Of a stretch of 64,000 nt of DNA, positions 20,089-56,960 are shown one piece after another. A program made the position numbers and the translations under genes. The notes beneath the pieces are model-generated. The model was not told the DNA's origin. It did not search any database and worked only from the letters and a program-made list of their open reading frames with translations. Position 1 is the first letter of the stretch. Every line of letters begins with the position of its first letter. This stretch comes from Eledone cirrhosa (Eukaryota), in NCBI GenBank assembly GCA_964016885.1, contig OZ024747.1:54746001-54810000 (forward strand), in the 5' to 3' direction.

Positions 20089-20133
<45 letters not shown>

Positions 20134-20151
20134 ATATTAAATAAATGGAAA

Positions 20152-20258
20152 CTATATTTATAAAACCATATTTATTTTATTATATATATTTCAAGGGCAA
20201 CCAAGACAACATTGGTACGCTTTCATCAGATAAAATACAAAGTTTGTTTTATAAATAG
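20152..20258 (-). ncRNA. Type-I hammerhead ribozyme motif (family C) in a cassette between two (TA)n tracts
   Basis: Minus strand: TATTTTAT-CTGATGA-AAGCGTACCAA..TTGGTTGCCCTT-GAAA-TATATATA-ATAAAATA. Stem I is 8 bp with a 12-bp distal extension (TATTTATAAAAC/GTTTTATAAATA), stem II is imperfect, stem III is palindromic, and the predicted site is AUA. Confidence 0.7.
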
Positions 20259-20304
20259 AGACATACCCATGAAAATCATACCTTATCCGTTGGAAATTCA
20301 CTGG

Positions 20305-20345
<41 letters not shown>

Positions 20346-20406
20346 GTAGAACACTGGAACGTAATATCCGTAGTGGTAGAGCACTCAGTCCAGGGGACGA
20401 GTTAGG

Positions 20407-20558
20407 TAGAAGTGTTTACAGAACAGTTAGTTCACCATCTCGTAATGGACATGGTTATACGGTTATCCCTATAACCATGTCTATTACGAGCGGAGGATTC
20501 GCTAATGTGAAACAATTGTTCTCGGTATGGTGAACTAACGGTTGTGTAACCACTTCTA
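20407..20558. repeat. Fold-back inverted repeat with a 36-nt asymmetric insert resembling a degenerate hammerhead
   Basis: Outer arms are about 20407-20438 and 20527-20558, inner arms about 20440-20460 and 20470-20490. The right arm alone has CGAG-CGGAGGA-..-GAAACAATTGTT-CTCG. Confidence 0.75.
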
Positions 20559-20580
20559 TATATATATATATATATATATA

Positions 20581-21384
20581 TAAGTATGTGTACATACATA
20601 CATATATGTATACAGACGGACAGTAGTATGTATATATATACATACATGCAAACATATATATATGTACGTATGGATTTACCGAACATTTATTATAATGCTC
20701 GGTTTGTTTGTAAACAAACATCCTAAATTAAGCCGTACAGTGTTTAGCAACCATCGTTGCCCTTTTGTACAACACTGACAAAGGAACGATGTACTAGTTT
20801 CACGCTTATTAGCTCTCGTCAGCACCGTATACCTTCCTGACAGATGATTGAACGTCTGAAAGTATATACTTTCCTTATGCATATTAACGGCTGAGCAGCC
20901 TAATTTGCATATCGAGTGAGTTAATCGAAAACGATAAATGGAAAAAATGAAACGAAATTTCATTTCTCACTCTTAGTACGGCTGTTACTTAAATTTAAGT
21001 ATGTATACGTACATACATATATGTATACAGACGTACAGTAGTATGTATATATATACATACATGCATATATATATATACATGTACGTATGGATTTACCGAA
21101 CATTTATTATAATGCTCGGTTTGTTTGTAAACAATGATCCCGAATTAAGCCGTACAGTGTTTAGCTTAATTCGGGATGTTTGTTTACAAACAAACCGAGC
21201 ATTATAATAAATGTTCGGTAAAACCATACGTACATATATATATATGTGTGTGTGCAAGTATGTATATATAAACATACTACTGTACGTCTGTATACATATA
21301 TGTATGTACGTATACATACTTATATTTAAGTAACAGCCGTTCTAAGAGTGAGAAATGAAACTTCGTTTCCCTTTTTCCATTTAT
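20581..21384. mobile_element. Non-coding HHR cassette family A: about 415-bp monomer x1.4, then an inverted fold-back, flanked by (TA)n (retrozyme / Penelope pLTR-like)
   Basis: Direct repeats start at 20581 and 20996. Inverted arms are about 20934-21150 and 21164-21384 with a 13-nt spacer. Contains an HHR and an ATGCAAAT octamer. Confidence 0.8.
20786..20828 (-). ncRNA. Minimal type-I hammerhead ribozyme (family A)
   Basis: ACGGTG-CTGACGA-GAGCTAATAAGCGT-GAAAC-TA-GTA-CATCGT. Stem I is 6 bp, stem II is weak, stem III is the palindrome ACTAGT, and the predicted site is GUA. Confidence 0.8.
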
Positions 21385-21693
21385 ATATATATATATATAT
21401 ATAAAAACAAATAACGAAACGAAATTAAATTTCGTTTCGTTTGTAACTCACTTTTGTATGACTGACGCTTAAACAAAGTTAAAAATGTACATCCACATAT
21501 GTATACTGAAATACTAGTATGCATATGAATACACACACGTATACATATGTAGATGTACCAAGTTTTTCACTGGTCACTTTACTGTGAGTGTCCAGCTATT
21601 CTGCATGTAAACACACAGACAAACCGGTTTTTAGAGTCATACTGGTTTTTGAGGAAACACCTTTCCTCTATTCTCCAGAAAGCCAGACAAGGA

Positions 21694-21736
21694 ACATTGA
21701 ACTAGTTTCGTTGTTGTTACAACTCATCAGCAATAT
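21694..21736 (-). ncRNA. Minimal type-I hammerhead ribozyme (family B, left arm)
   Basis: ATATTG-CTGATGA-GTTGT-AACA-ACAAC-GAAAC-TA-GTT-CAATGT. Canonical core, 5-bp stem II, palindromic ACTAGT stem III, predicted GUU site. Confidence 0.88.
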
Positions 21737-22455
21737 TTACCTATCTTCCGGCCTTTCTGGAGAATCGTAAAAGCACATATCGTTATATGCTTTTTCTATG
21801 AAAATTAGTAGTGGGCAGACTAATTTGCATAGAGCGTGAGTACGTACCGGTTCAACGGAGACGATAAAAACAAATAACGAAACGAAATTAAATTTCGTTT
21901 CGTTTGTAACTCACTTTTGTATGACTGACGCTTAAACAATTAAGTTAAAAATGTACATCCACATATGTATACTGAAATACTAGTATGCATATGAATACAC
22001 ACACGTATACATATGTAGATGTACCAAGTTTTTCACTGGTCACTTTACTGTGAGTGTCCAGCTATTCTGTATGTAAACACACAGACAAACCGGTTTTTAG
22101 AGTCATACTGGTTTTTTACATACAGAATAGCTGGACACTCACAGTAAAGTGACCAGTGAAAAACTCGGTACATCTACATATGTATACGTGTGTGTATTCA
22201 TATGCATACTAGTATTTCAGTATACATATGTGGATGTACATTTTTAACTTAATTGTTTAAGCGTCAGTCATACAAAAGTGAGTTACAAACGAAACGAAAT
22301 TTAATTTCGTTTCGTTATTTGTTTTTATCGTCTCCGTTGAACCGGTACGTACTCACCCTCTATGCAAATTAGTCTGCCCACTACTAATTTTCATAGAAAA
22401 AGCATATAACGATATGTGCTTTTACGATACTCCAGAAAGGCCGGAAGATAGGTAA

Positions 22456-22498
22456 ATATTGCTGATGAGTTGTAACAACAACGAAACTAGTTCAATGT
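22456..22498 (+). ncRNA. Minimal type-I hammerhead ribozyme (family B, right arm)
   Basis: Identical motif ATATTGCTGATGAGTTGTAACAACAACGAAACTAGTTCAATGT on the plus strand. Confidence 0.88.
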
Positions 22499-22720
22499 TC
22501 CTTGTCTGGCTTTCTGGAGAATAGAAGAAAGGTGTTTCCTCAAAAACCAGTATGACTCTAAAAACCGGTTTGTCTGTGTGTTTGCATACAGAATAGCTGG
22601 ACACTCACAGTAAAGTGACCAGTGAAAAACTTGGTACATCTACATATGTATACGTGTGTGTATTCATATGCATACTAGTATTTCAGTATACATATGTGGA
22701 TGTACATTTTTAACTTAATT

Positions 22721-22794
<74 letters not shown>

Positions 22795-23474: not shown

Positions 23475-25230
23475 ATGTATGTTTTTCTGGTTTTATAATT
23501 TCACAAAGTTTTGCCAATATAGAGAGGATTAGTTTCTAACCTAGACACAAGGCTTTCTCACTGGAATTTACACAACATCAACGGGGCAGATATGTATGCT
23601 TGTCTGCATGCAAGCATGTGTAGATATGGATGTTATTTTATGTGTGGATGTGGATGTTTTGAGTTGTATGTGTGCATGTGTATATGCTTTGTATATGTAT
23701 ATGCAGTTATTAGATGCAAAATGTTTGGAATGTTTTACATACTTTTACTGTTCCATTAAGGGATTGTACTTGTAATTTCCTAACTAATTGTGTTCTTTCT
23801 ATTCTTGTGAAGCCTAGCTTCTCAAGATTTGTATTGAGGCAGTTACTAACATACCCCAGTACCCCAATAGTCACAGGCATAAATCTGAAGGTGTAATCAG
23901 GATGGAGTATCTGCAGATTTCTCATCAGTTCTGCATAAATATTCTCCTTCTCGCTAATCTTTGATATTATATTGGCAACTGCTGGGCAGCTAACTTCCAC
24001 TACTGTGCATACTTTCTTTTCCCTATATATCATAATATCTGGGCTTTTATGGCTGCATTTTATTGGGGTTTTTACTGGAACATTCCATCAGTACTCTTTC
24101 ATATTATGTATATAGATGTCTTCCACATTGCTGTAGATTTTAATGATTTTATTATCGGGGCTATCTTTTCTACGGATTGCATTGTACAATGTTTTGGCCA
24201 CTACATTATGCCTCATAGGTAGATAGTACCGCGATGACATCTTTAGACAAATACTGATGACATGTGTGACATCTTCGATGTTAATTCTGCAGAGTCTGCA
24301 CTTGATATCACATCTAGGTGTTTTGCCTGCATCTCTATCTCTTTTGTGAATCAGGTATTTCGTGTTAATTTCCTGTCCTTGGATTGCAAAAGGGTATTTT
24401 TCAAAGTGGGAGCCAATATAGCGGTTGTTGGTCCAAGATAGACTACTTTCCTTATCTATATTACTCTCACTCTGGAGCTTCCTCGCAATATATCCATGGA
24501 TGGTTTTTTGCTGATAAGCATACAGTTTTTCATCCATGGATTCACTGCGATACTGCTGAGTGACTTCCATGGGTGTGAGTTTTTGATTATCACACAGGGA
24601 ATATCACTCGAGGAATTATTTCCCAACTCTCAGGATCTTATCTGTTTCATGCTGACAGACTTGCTCGAGGGACGAGCACCTACGCCTCGAGGTTCGTAGA
24701 TGTTGTCGGAGGGATATGATGCGACATTCAAATGCTGTCTGGACTGATGTTAGGCCTCTGCCTCCCTGCTTACGTTTCAAGTGAAGGTGGACTATGTCAC
24801 TGTTGATGGGGACGTTTCCGGTGTCGTTTAGTATTTTTCGAGTTATAACATCAACTGCTCGGATTTCGTCTATCGTCCAATTGAGTATTCCAAACACACT
24901 GTGAGCCACTGTTTTATTTTGCGCAGAGAGTTCCGATGACCATATCTTTTTTAATCGGGTTACGCGTTCCTTATTACAGATACCATTATAGGATATGTTC
25001 TCATCTATCCCCAGGTACCTATAGCAGTACTAATCCGGTATCGGTGAAAGAGTTAGGCCATTGATGACAATGTTGCTAGATTGGGTTGTTGTTTTTCCCC
25101 ACTTTACAGTCATATAGGAGCATTTATCTTGGCCAAACTCCATTCCTATATCCTTTGAGAACGTTGTAACAAGGTCAATATTTTTCTTCATCCCATCTTG
25201 GCATAGAGGTTCAGATCATCCAGAAAAAAT
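23475..25230 (-). pseudogene. 5'-truncated, frameshifted R4/Dong-clade non-LTR retrotransposon (RT C-terminal half, REL domain, 3' UTR)
   Basis: Fragments FLDDLNLYA, YRYLG, GGRGL, CRLC..EDVTHVISIC, RHN and VVEVSCP..K..Y are spread over ORFs 24616-24909, 24088-24570 and 23710-24033, colinear with the intact element at 53-57 kb. Confidence 0.85.
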
Positions 25231-25542
25231 ATCTTCACACAAAGGCATTGCACCATAGAATTATTTAATAATTATTAATAATGTTATATCTTGCAATGGC
25301 CATACTCGATAACGAGGGGGCAGCCATCATGTATGTATGTATGTATGTATGTATGTATGTATGTATGTATGTATGTATGTATGTATGTATGTATGTATGT
25401 ATGTATGTATGTATGTTTGTGTGTGTGTGTGTGTGTGTGTATGTGTGTGTGAGGGTGCGCGCGTGTCTGTATGTATATATGTATGTTTGTACGTACGTAT
25501 TTAGGTATGCATGAATATGTGTGTGTATATATATATATATAG

Positions 25543-41472: not shown

Positions 41473-41857
41473 CCTGGATGGGAGATATGAAATGAGAATG
41501 ACATAGACTGAGTGGCGTTAGTTGGAACTCAATGTGTATTTATGTATCTGAATATTGAATCATTTGAAACACACACACGCGCACGTTAACCATTCACACG
41601 CACACATACACATACAACATCTTATGTTCATATACACTCATTCACATTCCTACACATGCACAAACACACATGTCAAAATGCCCAGGTTACACACAGGCAT
41701 TCGAAAAGACAAACTCCTAAACCTTTACACCTTCCTTTACACGTGCAGCCATTCACATTCAAACAAATATACACATATACACATTCATGCTGACGTATTC
41801 ACTTTATACACCCAGCCATCGTTCCGATATATATATACCTTTATTCTCTCCCGAACA

Positions 41858-42378
41858 CATTCATATATATATACACACGTATAGAAACATGTTGAATTAC
41901 ACGCGTTGCATATACCGACACTTTTACGCATACCTAGGAACATTTACACAGGGAACACATTCAGAATCACAAACATACACATATGCTGAAGTGCGTAAAA
42001 TCCTCCCATCTAATCCAATTTGCACATTGTTACATACACATTCACCAATGTTCAAATATGTTGTACACAAATATACACCCTTTTACAGATACAAACTTAC
42101 ATTCATCTTTATATGCACACATTCATATATATATACACACGTATAGAAACATGTTGAATTACACGCGTTTCATATACCGACACTTTTACGCATACCTAGG
42201 AACATTTACACAGGGAACACATTCAGAATCACGAACATACACATATGCTCAAGTGCGTAAAATCCTCCCATCTAATCCAATTTGCACATTGTTACAAACA
42301 CATTCACCAATGTTCAAATATGTTGTACACAAATATACACCCTTTTACAGATACAAACTTACATTCATCTTTATACGC
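41858..42378. repeat. Recent tandem duplication, about 262-bp unit x2
   Basis: Near-identical blocks start at 41858 and 42120. Confidence 0.92.
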
Positions 42379-42506
42379 ACATATTTTCACACGCAATTAT
42401 ATTGCATGCAGGGAAACGTATGCACCGATGAATTCAGATACTACACACTTATATAAAGCAATCAAATATACCTCAATATGCCAAGAAAACAACAATTATA
42501 TGTAGA

Positions 42507-47702: not shown

Positions 47703-47964
47703 CATATATATCACAGAATAAAGATAATCGGTTTAGCGACTGATTCTCTTTTTCTGTGTGATATCATACTCTGCTGTAAGAGGGCATCGAGTGCTCATAC
47801 GACCTACCGCATACGGGCGCTTTAAGCATCCAACACCAATTATATTTATATATATATGTGTGTGTGTAAATGAAGTAATTCCGTCGGAAAAGTCCAGGAA
47901 AAAAGAGTGCTCTATGTAGGTAACAGAGCTTAATAGTTATGTAATAAACAACATAAGGCAATTA

Positions 47965-48025
47965 TTTCATTTACCAGCGGTTTCTTAAAAGCAAAAAAAT
48001 GTTGCTTTCAATCATCAGAATGAAA
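47965..48025 (-). ncRNA. Type-I hammerhead ribozyme (family D, left arm)
   Basis: TTTCATT-CTGATGA-TTGAAAGCAA-loop-TTGCTTTTAA-GAAAC-CGCTG-GTA-AATGAAA. Stem I is 7 bp, stem II is 10 bp closed by U-A, stem III is 3 bp, and the predicted site is GUA. Confidence 0.8.
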
Positions 48026-48102
48026 AAGTCCTGGCGTATTTATTGACGTTGGATTTACAAAAAACCTTTTAAAATCCAACGTCAATAAATACGCCAGGAT
48101 TT

Positions 48103-48163
48103 TTTCATTCTGATGATTGAAAGCAACATTTTTTTGCTTTTAAGAAACCACTGGTAAATGCAA
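48103..48163 (+). ncRNA. Type-I hammerhead ribozyme (family D, right arm)
   Basis: Same motif on the plus strand with two substitutions. Confidence 0.78.
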
Positions 48164-48203
48164 TAATTGCCTTATGTTGTTTATTACATAACTATATATA
48201 TAT

Positions 48204-49974: not shown

Positions 49975-50397
49975 TTTAATTATTATTTGAATATGGCAAA
50001 GCCGGCCATCGATCGCTCGTATACAGGATAATGACAGGCTAATCTGCTGATATGCAAATCTGGCTGATCAGTGGATCTGACTGATCAGCCAGTCTGCTAA
50101 TATGCAAATCAGGCCGATCAGTCACTATATATTTTAGAAAATATCATATATTTTCATTAGCTCTGGCAGTCAACAGTTGAACTGATGAAGGGTAATACCC
50201 CAAAACATTAGACTCTGCAGTTCTGTATACATGCCAACACAAGAACAAGTATGAGGGGGTCATTCTACTGATATGGCTTTAAACATGAGGCTTGTTAGCA
50301 TAATTGCAAACGAAACGTATATTATTATTAATATTCGAAAAACTCAGATTAAATTTATTATGTTCATCCATGTAGAGCAAACATTTCGTTTTATTTC

Positions 50398-53269: not shown

Positions 53270-56200
53270 ATCATCATTATTATTATTATTATTATTATTA
53301 TTGTTATTGTTATTCCTTGAATCTCAGTCATTGATGTTGGTTAACTGGAAAGTCCGTTGGATTGAATATCAAGCCACTACCTGCAGCCTCAGATATTCAG
53401 GACGTATCGGAGGGTTCTTGCCGTTCCAAGCAAGCATGCCTTTTGAAGCGTTCCAAAAAGCGTGAAGGGGCCGATTTTCTTTAACCATCCCTGGAAACCT
53501 TTGGAGATAGTCCCCAGTGCGCCTATGACAATCGGGATCACTTTGACTTCATGGCAGTTCCAAATCCTTTTCACCTCCCACTTTAGGTCCTGGTATCGGT
53601 TAATTTTCTCCCTCTCCTTCTCTTGCACTCTCGTGTCGAACGGGCAGGCCACATCCACAATCAGGCACGATCTTTTTTCTTTGTCCACAACCACCAGGTC
53701 AGGTCTATTGTGTTCCAGTTTTTTGTCCGTCTGTATCCTAAAATCCCACAGCACCTTCACCTGACTGTTCTCCATCACCGCCTCTGGCCTATGCTCATAC
53801 CATTTCTCAGAGTGTGGTAGATTGTTTACTTTGCACAGGTGCCAGTGGATCACCCTGCCCATCACATCGTGTCTCCAGCCCTTATAGTGGGTCTGGGCTA
53901 GGTGTTTACACTCGGACACAATGTGAGCCACAGTCTCCTCTCTCTCTCTACAGATCCTGCACAGTGGGCTAGCCTCCTCCTTGTAGATATGGTGCTTCAA
54001 CCACTTCGTTTTGAGGGCCTGCTCCTGCGCAGCCATTAGCATTCCTTCTGTAGCCTTTTTGAGGTCTCCTCTTCTCAACCAGTTCCATGTCTGTGGATCT
54101 CTAAATTCAGTTTTCTCAAAGAAGGTACTATGAAGGGATTTTCCCTTAAGGCTGCTCTTCCTCATTGATGTTATTTCCTCCTTGGGTATCCCCTGGCCTA
54201 CTGTCCCCTCCTTCAGTACAGCTCTGAGCATTGGCTCCTTACTATAGGTCACGTATTTGTATAGGTTGTTTTTCTCCATCTGAACACAGTCCTCTATGCT
54301 GATAAGACCTCTTCCACCCTCAGATCTCCTTAGGTAGAGTCTATCGACATCACTCCTCTTGTGGAACATGTTGTAGATAGTCAATAGCTTCCTAGTCTTC
54401 CTATCCATTTCTTTTTGTTCAGCAACATTCCATCTCAGGATTCCCGCACTGTACCTAATAATAGACACAGCTCGGGAATTTACTGCGCTTATGGCATTTC
54501 TGCTGTTCAGATGTGACTTCAATACGCTCCTTACTCTCCGAATGTATTCAGTTCTTAACAATTCCTTCATTTTTTTGTTCTTTATGCCATCAGCCTCCAG
54601 AACGCCCAAATACTTGTATCCTTCCTCAGAGTCAATTTCCTTTATCATCTCACCTGTTGGTATCTGGATCCCGTTACTTCTGCTCAACCTACCCCTCCTC
54701 ATCACAATGACTCCACATTTACCAATACCAAACTGCATACATATATCACTGCTGAAAATACGGACAGTGTCAACAAGCACATCCAACTCCTTCTCACTTT
54801 TCCCGAAGAGCTTAAGATCGTCCATGAAGAGGAGGTGATTGATGGTAAGCTCTCCCCTTCCCAACTTGTATCCTGCTCTCACTTTTCGCAGCATAATGGT
54901 CAAGGGCATCAGGGCAACGACAAACAACAGAGGGGACAGGCTATCTCCCTGGAAGATACCTCTCTTGATCTTCACGCTTCCCAAGGATACTCCAGTTGAT
55001 GTCAACTCTGTCTCCCAGGACCCCATACTCCTGCCCAGCAACTGTCTGATGTTATCTGCCACCCTGAAGATCTCCAGGCTTTTGGTGATCCAGGAATGAG
55101 GCACCATGTCAAATGCCTTTCTGTAGTCTATCCATCCCATGGCAAGATCAGTGTGTCTCCTCCTGCAATTCCCCATTACCATCTTATCAATAAGCAACTG
55201 GTCCTTTGTACCACGTGACTTCCTTCGGCATCCTTTCTGTTCGTCCGGCAACAAGTTGTTTGTGTGGAGGTGATGGTAGATTTCCTCAGACACAATGCTC
55301 GTCAACAGTTTCCACATTACGGGCAGACATGTGATAGGTCTATAGTTGGTAACATCATTACCCTTGATTCGGTCTTTCATTATCAGAACTGTGGTACCTT
55401 TTGTCAACCACTCTGGCACCTCACCCGACACCAAGCAGTCATTGAACATGGCCGTCAGCTTCGGGTGGAGGGATGTTAAATGTTTAATCCAATACCCCTG
55501 CACACCATCTGGGCCTGGTGATTTCCAGTTGGTTAGTTTTTTGGCTTGCCCCTTAAGAGTTTCAACTGTGATACTCAAATCAGTCTGTTTCTGTGCCTGC
55601 TCACCGATCTCCCTCTGTACTGTCTCAATCCACCCTGCCTGGGCATTGTGTCTAACATCCTGCTCCCATATTCCTCTCCAGAATGTTTTAGCTTGTTCCG
55701 CCCCAGGGATCAAGTCGTTGCCTCTTTCTTTCCCCTCAAGCTGTCCAAACAGCATCTTCTGGTTGTTGTCGAACATGCGGTTCTGTTTATACTGACTGAC
55801 TCTGTTCTCGTATCGCCTGATTTTGGCACTCTTTGCTACAATGCGTTGCTTCAATTCCTCTATGATAATATTTAGCTTTTTACTCCTAGTTTTGTATTTT
55901 ATTTCCAGTCTATTTTTAGTGCCTATGTTTTTTAGTGTCCCATTCAGTAGTGACTCAAGCTTTCCTATGTCATTTCTCATTTCCCCGATTTGCCCACTCA
56001 GTCGCTTCCTCCACCACGGCTCTGCTCTTTCTTGTCTGTTGTTTCCTCTCGCTTTTATACCAAGTAGTTTCCTCACCGTATTTGCTGTTGCTTTGAGGAT
56101 ATTGTTGCACTGGTGAAGACTCCTCGCCTCAAGGTATGGGATGACTTTGTTTACCTTAGCTGTTGTTTCTTTTAACTTTTTCCTGTCTACAAATCTTAGG

Positions 56201-56960
56201 TTCATAGGTCTCCCACTATCATTGTTCAACTCATCTACCACTAAATTTAGGATGTCAACCGAATCTTGTCCTAGCCCGTCAGCATTCATCTCCTCAGTGG
56301 CCGTATCTCTGTTCCAGGTATTATTTATCTCAGTATTCAGATCATTGTCTGCTTCGGGTGGTTCCTCCGTTCTCAGGACCTCCTCACCTTCATTTCCCGC
56401 CGGCTCGCTTGTCTGGCATACTACACCCGCCATCTCCAAGCCATTCTCTCTGCTCAGTTCCTCCAGTTCCAGCTCGCTTATCCACCCATTAGTTCTTATT
56501 ACCCGAGCCTGCCCGGCCAATTTTTGTTCATCTAATTTAAATAAACCAATCTCGTTCCAGATGTTATGCATCCGTCTCCTGTAGCCCCTCTCCTTGGGGT
56601 TACTTTTCAGGTAGCATTGCATAACAGTTCTATTCAATTCTTTCGTCCAGTTGGTTCTGGCCCCTTTCCTTCTTCTTCTTCCTCCAACATCAGCAGTATT
56701 TGGTTGACAGTCAGGTTCCTGCTGCTGAGCCAGGGGGCACCTGTTGGGTGAGAGTCTGTCACATGACGTTCTAGTCTCCATTTCACCGTTATTCGAACTG
56801 TTTATGTTCGATATTTAAACACTCTTATCGAGGATTGGCGAATGTATGTTTACATAGCCATCTGTGGATCCGCCATCCCACTTGGCCCTTGTGTGGCATT
56901 ATCACCACGCTGTATACGGACACACATAAACAAACAAACACACGGGCAGAAAGGGCCCCA
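53270..56960 (-). mobile_element. Probably full-length R4/Dong-type LINE with a short 3' UTR ending in (TAA)n
   Basis: An approximately 75-nt 3' UTR follows the stop, then AATAACAATAACAATAATAAT.... Dong-type R4 elements are known to target (TAA)n. The 5' boundary is uncertain. Confidence 0.8.
53389..56781 (-). CDS. Intact 1130-aa RT plus REL endonuclease protein of an R4/Dong-clade non-LTR retrotransposon
   Basis: N-terminal WTxExNxxVMxCY..GYRRRM motif. RT motifs SPGPDG, NYRPITCL, IDYRKAFD, GIFQGDSLSP, FMDD, YKYLG and GGRGL. CCHC motif CRIC..H..EC, RHD and nuclease motif PD..D..K. Confidence 0.95.
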   Translation of the reverse strand: METRTSCDRLSPNRCPLAQQQEPDCQPNTADVGGRRRRKGARTNWTKELNRTVMQCYLKSNPKERGYRRRMHNIWNEIGLFKLDEQKLAGQARVIRTNGWISELELEELSRENGLEMAGVVCQTSEPAGNEGEEVLRTEEPPEADNDLNTEINNTWNRDTATEEMNADGLGQDSVDILNLVVDELNNDSGRPMNLRFVDRKKLKETTAKVNKVIPYLEARSLHQCNNILKATANTVRKLLGIKARGNNRQERAEPWWRKRLSGQIGEMRNDIGKLESLLNGTLKNIGTKNRLEIKYKTRSKKLNIIIEELKQRIVAKSAKIRRYENRVSQYKQNRMFDNNQKMLFGQLEGKERGNDLIPGAEQAKTFWRGIWEQDVRHNAQAGWIETVQREIGEQAQKQTDLSITVETLKGQAKKLTNWKSPGPDGVQGYWIKHLTSLHPKLTAMFNDCLVSGEVPEWLTKGTTVLIMKDRIKGNDVTNYRPITCLPVMWKLLTSIVSEEIYHHLHTNNLLPDEQKGCRRKSRGTKDQLLIDKMVMGNCRRRHTDLAMGWIDYRKAFDMVPHSWITKSLEIFRVADNIRQLLGRSMGSWETELTSTGVSLGSVKIKRGIFQGDSLSPLLFVVALMPLTIMLRKVRAGYKLGRGELTINHLLFMDDLKLFGKSEKELDVLVDTVRIFSSDICMQFGIGKCGVIVMRRGRLSRSNGIQIPTGEMIKEIDSEEGYKYLGVLEADGIKNKKMKELLRTEYIRRVRSVLKSHLNSRNAISAVNSRAVSIIRYSAGILRWNVAEQKEMDRKTRKLLTIYNMFHKRSDVDRLYLRRSEGGRGLISIEDCVQMEKNNLYKYVTYSKEPMLRAVLKEGTVGQGIPKEEITSMRKSSLKGKSLHSTFFEKTEFRDPQTWNWLRRGDLKKATEGMLMAAQEQALKTKWLKHHIYKEEASPLCRICREREETVAHIVSECKHLAQTHYKGWRHDVMGRVIHWHLCKVNNLPHSEKWYEHRPEAVMENSQVKVLWDFRIQTDKKLEHNRPDLVVVDKEKRSCLIVDVACPFDTRVQEKEREKINRYQDLKWEVKRIWNCHEVKVIPIVIGALGTISKGFQGWLKKIGPFTLFGTLQKACLLGTARTLRYVLNI

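What the first reader, a model, noticed from the sequence alone, without database searches (positions are those of the whole stretch)
20581..21384. Family A: a diverged relative of family B with the same architecture
Seen: a 415-bp monomer x1.4 plus a 220-bp fold-back. Its primary sequence differs from B, but it shares CTAATTTGCATA, an ACGATAAA..AACGAAA segment, the ACTAGT stem III and TTCCTT after stem I. Stems I and II differ in sequence while keeping pairing, which amounts to natural covariation supporting the ribozyme fold.
Basis: partly seen in the sequence, partly recalled or inferred. Interest (0 to 1): 0.7.

Follow-up and report, generated by a model that had tools for sequence, protein, structure and literature searches.

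The report
Self-cutting RNA repeat with Penelope-style ends
This is one slightly decayed copy of an animal repeat carrying a predicted self-cutting RNA (hammerhead ribozyme); the type is known, but its ends match those of a diverged neighbour in a way that points to the enzyme that copies them.

Summary
20581-21167 is 1.41 copies of a 415-bp non-coding monomer, followed by a 221-bp inverted arm, all inside (TA)n. The minus strand carries a type I hammerhead motif (5 descriptor hits in the window; 0.01 expected). A and B are collinear homologues (70% identity). A versus B gives 4 double-sided changes in 16 pairs, but two sequences are not significant (36/500 shuffles), and stem II of this copy has one broken pair. 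Reads and contigs from four runs show a high-copy family. All 5 stem I pairs with listed variants keep or regain pairing, and >99% of copies lack the broken stem II pair. Most copies have U·U at the base of stem II. Verdict: a non-LTR retrozyme-type element, a new family of a known kind; this copy has a single weakened ribozyme. That is the Penelope-like (PLE) inverted-plus-tail signature, so PLE enzymes probably mobilised them. A shared octamer hints at an internal promoter (weak). Cleavage, expression and the helper element are untested.

The parts
20557..20582 (.). (TA)n run, left flank and presumed target; its last letters overlap the element end
20581..21167 (-). Main arm of A: 1.41 head-to-tail monomers; RNA sense is the minus strand; its 3' end ('Y' end) is at 20581
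20581..20995 (-). One 415-bp monomer, 34% G+C, no credible ORF, predicted highly self-paired
20775..20843 (-). Type I hammerhead motif with extended stem I (proximal 20828-20823/20791-20786; distal 20836-20832/20784-20780; far 20843-20839/20779-20775)
   Evidence: Rfam HH9 only E=0.23, 19.5 bits against gathering 52
20816..20822 (-). Core box CUGACGA; position 7 varies C/U in the family
20802..20815 (-). Stem II and loop 2; this copy has G.U then A x G; family majority has U.U then A-U
20792..20801 (-). GAA box, palindromic helix III ACUAGU and H17; predicted cleavage between 20792 and 20791
   Evidence: cleavage position inferred from the standard hammerhead numbering
20903..20910 (-). Octamer ATGCAAAT, 80 nt upstream of the core, inside the longest identical run between A and B; also lies in a predicted hairpin
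20934..20995 (-). 62-nt segment with a palindromic hairpin between the two end sites (X = 20934, Y = 20996); candidate PLE 'tail'
   Evidence: 58 contigs of run X1 pass from 20934 into (TA)n
21151..21167 (.). Fold-back junction: 13-nt loop with about 2-4 letters fitting both sides, 43 nt short of the next (absent) cleavage site
21164..21384 (+). Inverted arm, RNA sense on +, ends at site X; carries no ribozyme
21382..21403 (.). (TA)n run between A and B
21401..22725 (.). Neighbour B (comparison): 466-bp monomer, main arm 1.54 units from site X, inverted arm 1.33 units ending at site Y, one hammerhead per arm

Best explanation
A is one insertion of a high-copy, non-coding retroelement family of the animal non-LTR retrozyme kind. 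Shown: tandem 415-bp unit, hammerhead motif, family-level pairing, two end sites shared with B, (TA)n flanks. Inferred: tandem source loci are transcribed; the type I hammerhead, probably helped by dimer formation through its palindromic helix III, cuts the RNA to unit length; units may be circularised. A Penelope-like RT-endonuclease then nicks (TA)n and starts reverse transcription at one of two internal sites flanking a hairpin (X, Y). It runs more than one unit, and yields a head-to-head insertion with one X end and one Y end. The inverted arm arises either by priming from both target strands or by fold-back of one cDNA and resolution at the second site; I cannot separate these. This particular copy has one weakened ribozyme and cannot itself release a unit-length RNA.
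For: Descriptor 5 hits against 0.01. B scores against Rfam HH9 at E=4.9e-6. A-B homology. Family abundance: 64,669 of 12.5 M reads in X18, 10,447 contigs in X1, 63 in X4, 10 in X6. In stem I, 5 of 16 pairs have listed variants and all 5 keep or regain pairing, two by changes on both sides (G.U to U.G; A-U to U.G); none of the 40 listed rows hits a conserved core base, helix III or the octamer. Head-to-tail joints 21005 to 20665 in 106 reads. A's end X maps exactly on B's X (21864), Y within 8 nt, fold-back point within 4 nt. X abuts (TA)n in 58 X1 contigs. PLE insertions are described with partial tandems, an adjacent inverted truncated copy, a one-sided tail and (TA)n bias (10.1101/2021.04.23.441226); a PLE protein nicks and extends both strands and starts at two internal sites that define the tail (PMC11167929). 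L018 has a B-like hammerhead (86% over 42 nt) about 425 nt behind a GIY-YIG-like ORF end.
Against: No cleavage, RNA or circle was shown. A itself is far under the Rfam cut-off; its hammerhead stretch folds no better than shuffles (z -0.06) and the minimum-energy fold of the wider stretch is not the hammerhead. The family majority lacks the canonical G10.1-C11.1 pair. A versus B covariation is not significant. Only 40 of 74 variant rows were shown, and reads do not phase both sides of each pair; one double change (20835/20781) has unequal frequencies. The tail is 62-69 nt, not the 30-40 nt described. No PLE ORF is in the window (the one intact RT ORF is of another type). The end coincidences rest on two insertions. 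Pfam did not hit the L018 ORF end. In Xenopus only 1 of 9 predicted retrozyme dimers cleaved in vitro.
Confidence: 0.8

Rival explanations
1. A is not an independent retrozyme but the terminal repeat (pLTR) of an autonomous Penelope-like element, inserted as a 5'-truncated tandem plus inverted piece.
For: The architecture is the PLE one. L018 shows a similar hammerhead behind a GIY-YIG-like ORF end. Retrozymes and pLTRs are related in Xenopus.
Against: Reading upstream from the end returns to the same monomer after 415 nt (B: 466) with no ORF between units; head-to-tail joints occur in reads. The motif has a full helix I and III, while animal PLE ribozymes are described as minimal variants.
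Confidence: 0.12
2. A is now a DNA-level repeat (minisatellite or fold-back element) with a vestigial ribozyme; the inversions come from replication or repair slips in (TA)n, not from retrotransposition.
For: U.U at the base of stem II in 91-96% of laid depth; no expression shown; other fold-back islands sit in TA runs in this window.
Against: Core letters unchanged across 30% divergence, pairing-preserving changes in stem I, and the same end sites in two families are not expected from random slips. A U.U base also occurs in an axolotl family that cleaves as a dimer.
Confidence: 0.07
3. The hammerhead match and the A-B likeness are chance in AT-rich DNA.
For: Weak Rfam score for A alone.
Confidence: 0.01

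Closest known systems
Animal non-LTR retrozymes (Cervera and de la Pena 2020, PMC7229834; Li et al. 2026, 10.64898/2026.07.22.740005)
   Same: Tandem non-coding unit of 150-450 bp, low G+C, one canonical type I hammerhead per unit, predicted self-paired RNA, high copy number.
   Different: This insertion has only 1.41 units and one ribozyme, plus an inverted arm. The passages I read describe no conserved promoter or helper-indicating motif (PMC7761336); here an octamer and two end sites are shared between two families. The word 'inverted' does not occur in the 2020 main text.
Axolotl HHR_Amex2 retrozyme ribozyme
   Same: Two-base-pair helix III and U.U at the base of helix II, as in the A family majority.
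   Different: No sequence comparison was made; activity of A is untested.
Penelope-like elements (pLTR, inverted copy, tail; Craig 2021, Frangieh 2024)
   Same: Partial tandem, adjacent inverted truncated copy, two alternative ends, AT-rich or (TA)n target.
   Different: No ORF; tail 62-69 nt against 30-40 nt; full and not minimal hammerhead; ends have 2-4 letters fitting the target, while the anole element starts without homology.
Newt satellite 2 (hammerhead repeat with snRNA-type promoter)
   Same: Hammerhead tandem repeat with an internal promoter of snRNA type (cited in PMC2220036); that this promoter includes an octamer is recalled, not read.
   Different: No proximal element or start site is identified in A; promoter function is untested.

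Membership tests
Type I hammerhead ribozyme | Core CUGANGA ... GAAA ... UH in type I order | tested here: met
   no listed variant at conserved core positions among 40 of 74 rows
Type I hammerhead ribozyme | Helix I about 6 bp with extension, short palindromic helix III | tested here: met
   description in PMC4209133
Type I hammerhead ribozyme | Helix II of 4 or more pairs closed by G10.1-C11.1 | tested here: not met
   This copy: G.U, mismatch, 3 pairs. Family majority: U.U plus 4 pairs, a described variant. B meets it.
Type I hammerhead ribozyme | Rfam gathering score | tested here: not met
   A 19.5 bits, B 34 bits against 52 for RF02275 HH9, a vertebrate intronic family
Type I hammerhead ribozyme | Self-cleavage | not testable with these tools
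   needs a transcription assay
Non-LTR retrozyme | Tandem unit 150-450 bp, G+C under 45-50%, non-coding, one hammerhead per unit | tested here: met
   415 bp, 34% G+C; tandem joints in reads
Non-LTR retrozyme | [quoted passage not shown] | tested here: not met
   One motif in this insertion; other loci of the family could not be examined
Non-LTR retrozyme | Highly self-paired monomer RNA | tested here: inconclusive
   Circular fold z -6.3 for A, but -6.7 for its reverse complement; B -11.3 against -6.9; 40 shuffles each
Non-LTR retrozyme | Expressed as linear and circular monomer RNA | not testable with these tools
   no RNA run was available to lay
PLE-mobilised insertion | Partial tandem plus adjacent inverted truncated copy | tested here: met
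   (A and B)
PLE-mobilised insertion | Two alternative ends defining a one-sided tail | tested here: inconclusive
   Same two sites in A and B and X recurrent in 58 contigs; Y recurrence not tested; tail longer than described
PLE-mobilised insertion | Microsatellite or AT-rich target | tested here: met
   All four ends of A and B abut (TA)n
Autonomous PLE | RT plus GIY-YIG ORF | tested here: not met
   No such ORF in A, B or the window
snRNA-type internal promoter | Octamer plus proximal sequence element and a fixed start site | tested here: inconclusive
   Octamer present in A and B; a 12-nt identical run is not unusual at 70% identity (P=0.85); proximal element and start not identified

The most novel reading that the evidence does not exclude
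A and B are a retrozyme lineage that keeps, across 30% divergence, a full cis-programme: two fixed PLE reverse-transcription start sites, a fixed stop or fold-back point just before the ribozyme, and its own octamer-based snRNA-type promoter. That would be an invertebrate parallel to newt satellite 2 and a direct footprint of the enzyme that mobilises animal retrozymes.
Probability: 0.25. Interest if true: 0.7.

Novelty: new member of a known kind. Interest (0 to 1): 0.42.

Why it matters
Which enzyme moves animal retrozymes is argued so far from co-occurrence and terminal-repeat trees, and a review states that they show no promoter and no motif that points to a helper. Insertion ends conserved between two diverged families give a countable, genome-wide test of PLE mobilisation and a ready template for an in vitro PLE assay. 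The ribozyme itself is ordinary.

Tried and rejected
No host genome is held, so copies could not be counted or aligned whole. Rfam at gathering score: 0 hits in the window; the many microRNA matches at E-value level are hairpin artefacts. No RNA holder listed. Opposite-strand joints in X18 mostly come from 1-5 start places in a RAD library and are not used. A tight A/B pattern found 0 metagenome loci; a looser one found 23, of which 0 have the sense octamer within 250 nt upstream and only L018 aligns to B, none to A. RNAalifold on two monomers (15 of 89 pairs double-changed) did not recover the hammerhead and is not counted. The 12-nt octamer run as proof of selection: rejected. Earlier scan findings: nothing. 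Literature searches for a cephalopod hammerhead repeat or an octamer in retrozymes listed no paper whose title or read passages describe this family. The supplement of PMC7229834, one of three of PMC4209133, bioRxiv supplements, Coats 1994 and Repbase were not seen and may bear on novelty.

Full report
Setting. The window is AT-rich, microsatellite-laden DNA with one intact RT ORF at 53389-56814. No genome is held. It is animal DNA by inference; it looks like octopus from its repeat load and SINE-like repeats, but that is recalled and was not tested.

Observation. The stretch 20581-20752 recurs at 20996-21167 (159/170), giving a 415-bp period and a main arm of 1.41 units; 21164-21384 is an inverted copy of 20934-21150 (204/217). 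Both ends abut (TA)n. A and B monomers align over their whole length at 286/410 columns, score 315 against 98 +/- 12 for 300 shuffles, so they are plain homologues.

Ribozyme. The minus strand carries a type I hammerhead motif: stem I, CUGACGA, stem II, GAA, palindromic ACUAGU, H17, with cleavage predicted between 20792 and 20791. A structural descriptor hits 5 places in the window (A, B twice, 20229, 48018) against a mean of 0.01 in 100 block-shuffled windows. Rfam gives no hit at gathering score; HH9 matches B at E=4.9e-6 and A at E=0.23. A's motif folds no better than shuffles (z -0.06; B -2.0).

Covariation. A against B: of 16 pairs, 9 never vary, 4 change on both sides, 2 on one side, 1 is broken in A. 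36 of 500 shuffles reach this, and slid controls show no double change. That is suggestive, not significant. I laid 4 of 20 listed runs on 20665-21005: 64,669 reads in X18 (a RAD library, so no copy number), 10,447 contigs in X1, 63 in X4, 10 in X6, under three organism labels. Scoring the 40 variant rows shown (34 were not shown) on hand-drawn helices: in stem I, 5 of 16 pairs vary and all 5 keep or regain pairing. One flips G.U to U.G with matching frequencies in X18 (0.53/0.51 and 0.05/0.06); another, A-U to U.G, has unequal frequencies (0.14/0.27, 0.61/0.84). In stem II the A x G mismatch is A-U in 99-100% of depth, so it is private decay, but the closing pair is U.U in 91-96%. In two downstream hairpins 5 of 6 varying positions keep or gain pairing. 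No shown row touches a conserved core base, helix III or the octamer. The two sides of a pair are not phased. A U.U base of helix II with a 2-bp helix III is described for an axolotl family that cleaves weakly alone and well as a dimer (PMC7229834, section 15).

Kind of element. Unit length, low G+C (34%), no credible ORF, a type I hammerhead per unit and head-to-tail joints (106 reads) fit animal non-LTR retrozymes (PMC7229834, passages; 10.64898/2026.07.22.740005, parts 1-3 of 5). This insertion has one ribozyme, so it fails the two-motif 'active' criterion and is best read as an offspring copy.

Ends. In RNA sense both arms point outwards, so both outer ends are 3' ends. A ends at Y (20581 = 20996) and X (21384 = 20934); B ends at X (21401 = 21864) and Y (22725 = 21933). 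Mapped through the alignment, X coincides exactly, Y within 8 nt, and the fold-back point within 4 nt, 43 and 49 nt short of the next cleavage site. In X1, 58 contigs pass from 20934 into a TA run (agreement 0.69; 22 loose-end rows shown, 530 not). The 62-69 nt between X and Y holds a palindromic hairpin and lies on the inverted arm in A, on the main arm in B. PLE insertions are described as partial tandems with an adjacent inverted truncated copy, a one-sided 30-40 bp tail and microsatellite bias (10.1101/2021.04.23.441226, passages). A purified PLE protein nicks and extends both strands and starts at two internal sites that bound the tail (PMC11167929, passages and part of section 3). I infer PLE mobilisation (about 0.75). 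Against: two insertions only, a longer tail, no helper in hand. Side support: of 23 metagenome loci with a similar core, L018 matches B's motif (86% over 42 nt) about 425 nt behind an ORF end whose nearest atlas clusters are GIY-YIG proteins (score 0.95, family on 15-23% of members; Pfam blank). L012 holds a head-to-head pair of such motifs.

Octamer. ATGCAAAT lies 80 nt (A) and 92 nt (B) upstream of the core in sense orientation, in the longest identical run of the two monomers. Such a run is common by chance (P=0.85); the motif is expected about 0.04 times per monomer (from 6.26 per window), but it was picked after the fact. It also lies in a predicted hairpin, so RNA structure could explain it. 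0 of 23 metagenome loci have it. Newt satellite 2 has an snRNA-type promoter (seen only as a citation in PMC2220036; original not held), whereas a review says animal retrozymes seem to lack promoters (PMC7761336, passages). I give promoter function about 0.3.

Novelty. Searches listed nothing that describes this family, and PMC10886601 (passages) does not either. Supplements and Repbase were not seen. It is a new member of a known kind. The interest lies in the conserved end geometry, which makes the helper question countable. Cleavage, expression, circularisation and the helper are inferred, not shown.

Noticed in passing
window 20129-20304 (motif at 20237-20173, minus strand): A third, unrelated type I hammerhead motif (8-bp stem I, palindromic AT helix III) in an island between (TA)n runs; no similarity to A or B.
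   Followed up: partly
window 47933-48195: A 263-bp near-perfect fold-back (94%) with a hammerhead-like core on both arms (48018 -, 48110 +), ending in TA; possibly another PLE-type inverted end.
   Followed up: partly
window 20343-20556: Island between (TA)n runs, almost wholly one long hairpin, with a head that resembles a tRNA A box (recalled); no hammerhead hit.
   Followed up: partly
window 41855-42385: 262-bp unit twice in tandem (97-98%) before a long (AT)n run; no hammerhead hit.
   Followed up: no
window 53389-56814 (-): Uninterrupted 1141-aa reverse transcriptase ORF (RVT_1 E=1e-22, weak zf-RVT); decayed fragments of a similar element at about 23800-25330.
   Followed up: partly
window 50041-50118: Short repeat with two octamers 50 nt apart around a small palindrome.
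   Followed up: no
L001, L003, L005, L010, L012, L022: A family of hammerhead-like motifs with the same helix III and short stem I in animal-like DNA of one metagenome assembly; L012 is a head-to-head inverted pair.
   Followed up: partly
window 20925: Some family copies carry a 12-13 nt G+C-rich insertion here, where B also has extra letters; this copy lacks it.
   Followed up: no
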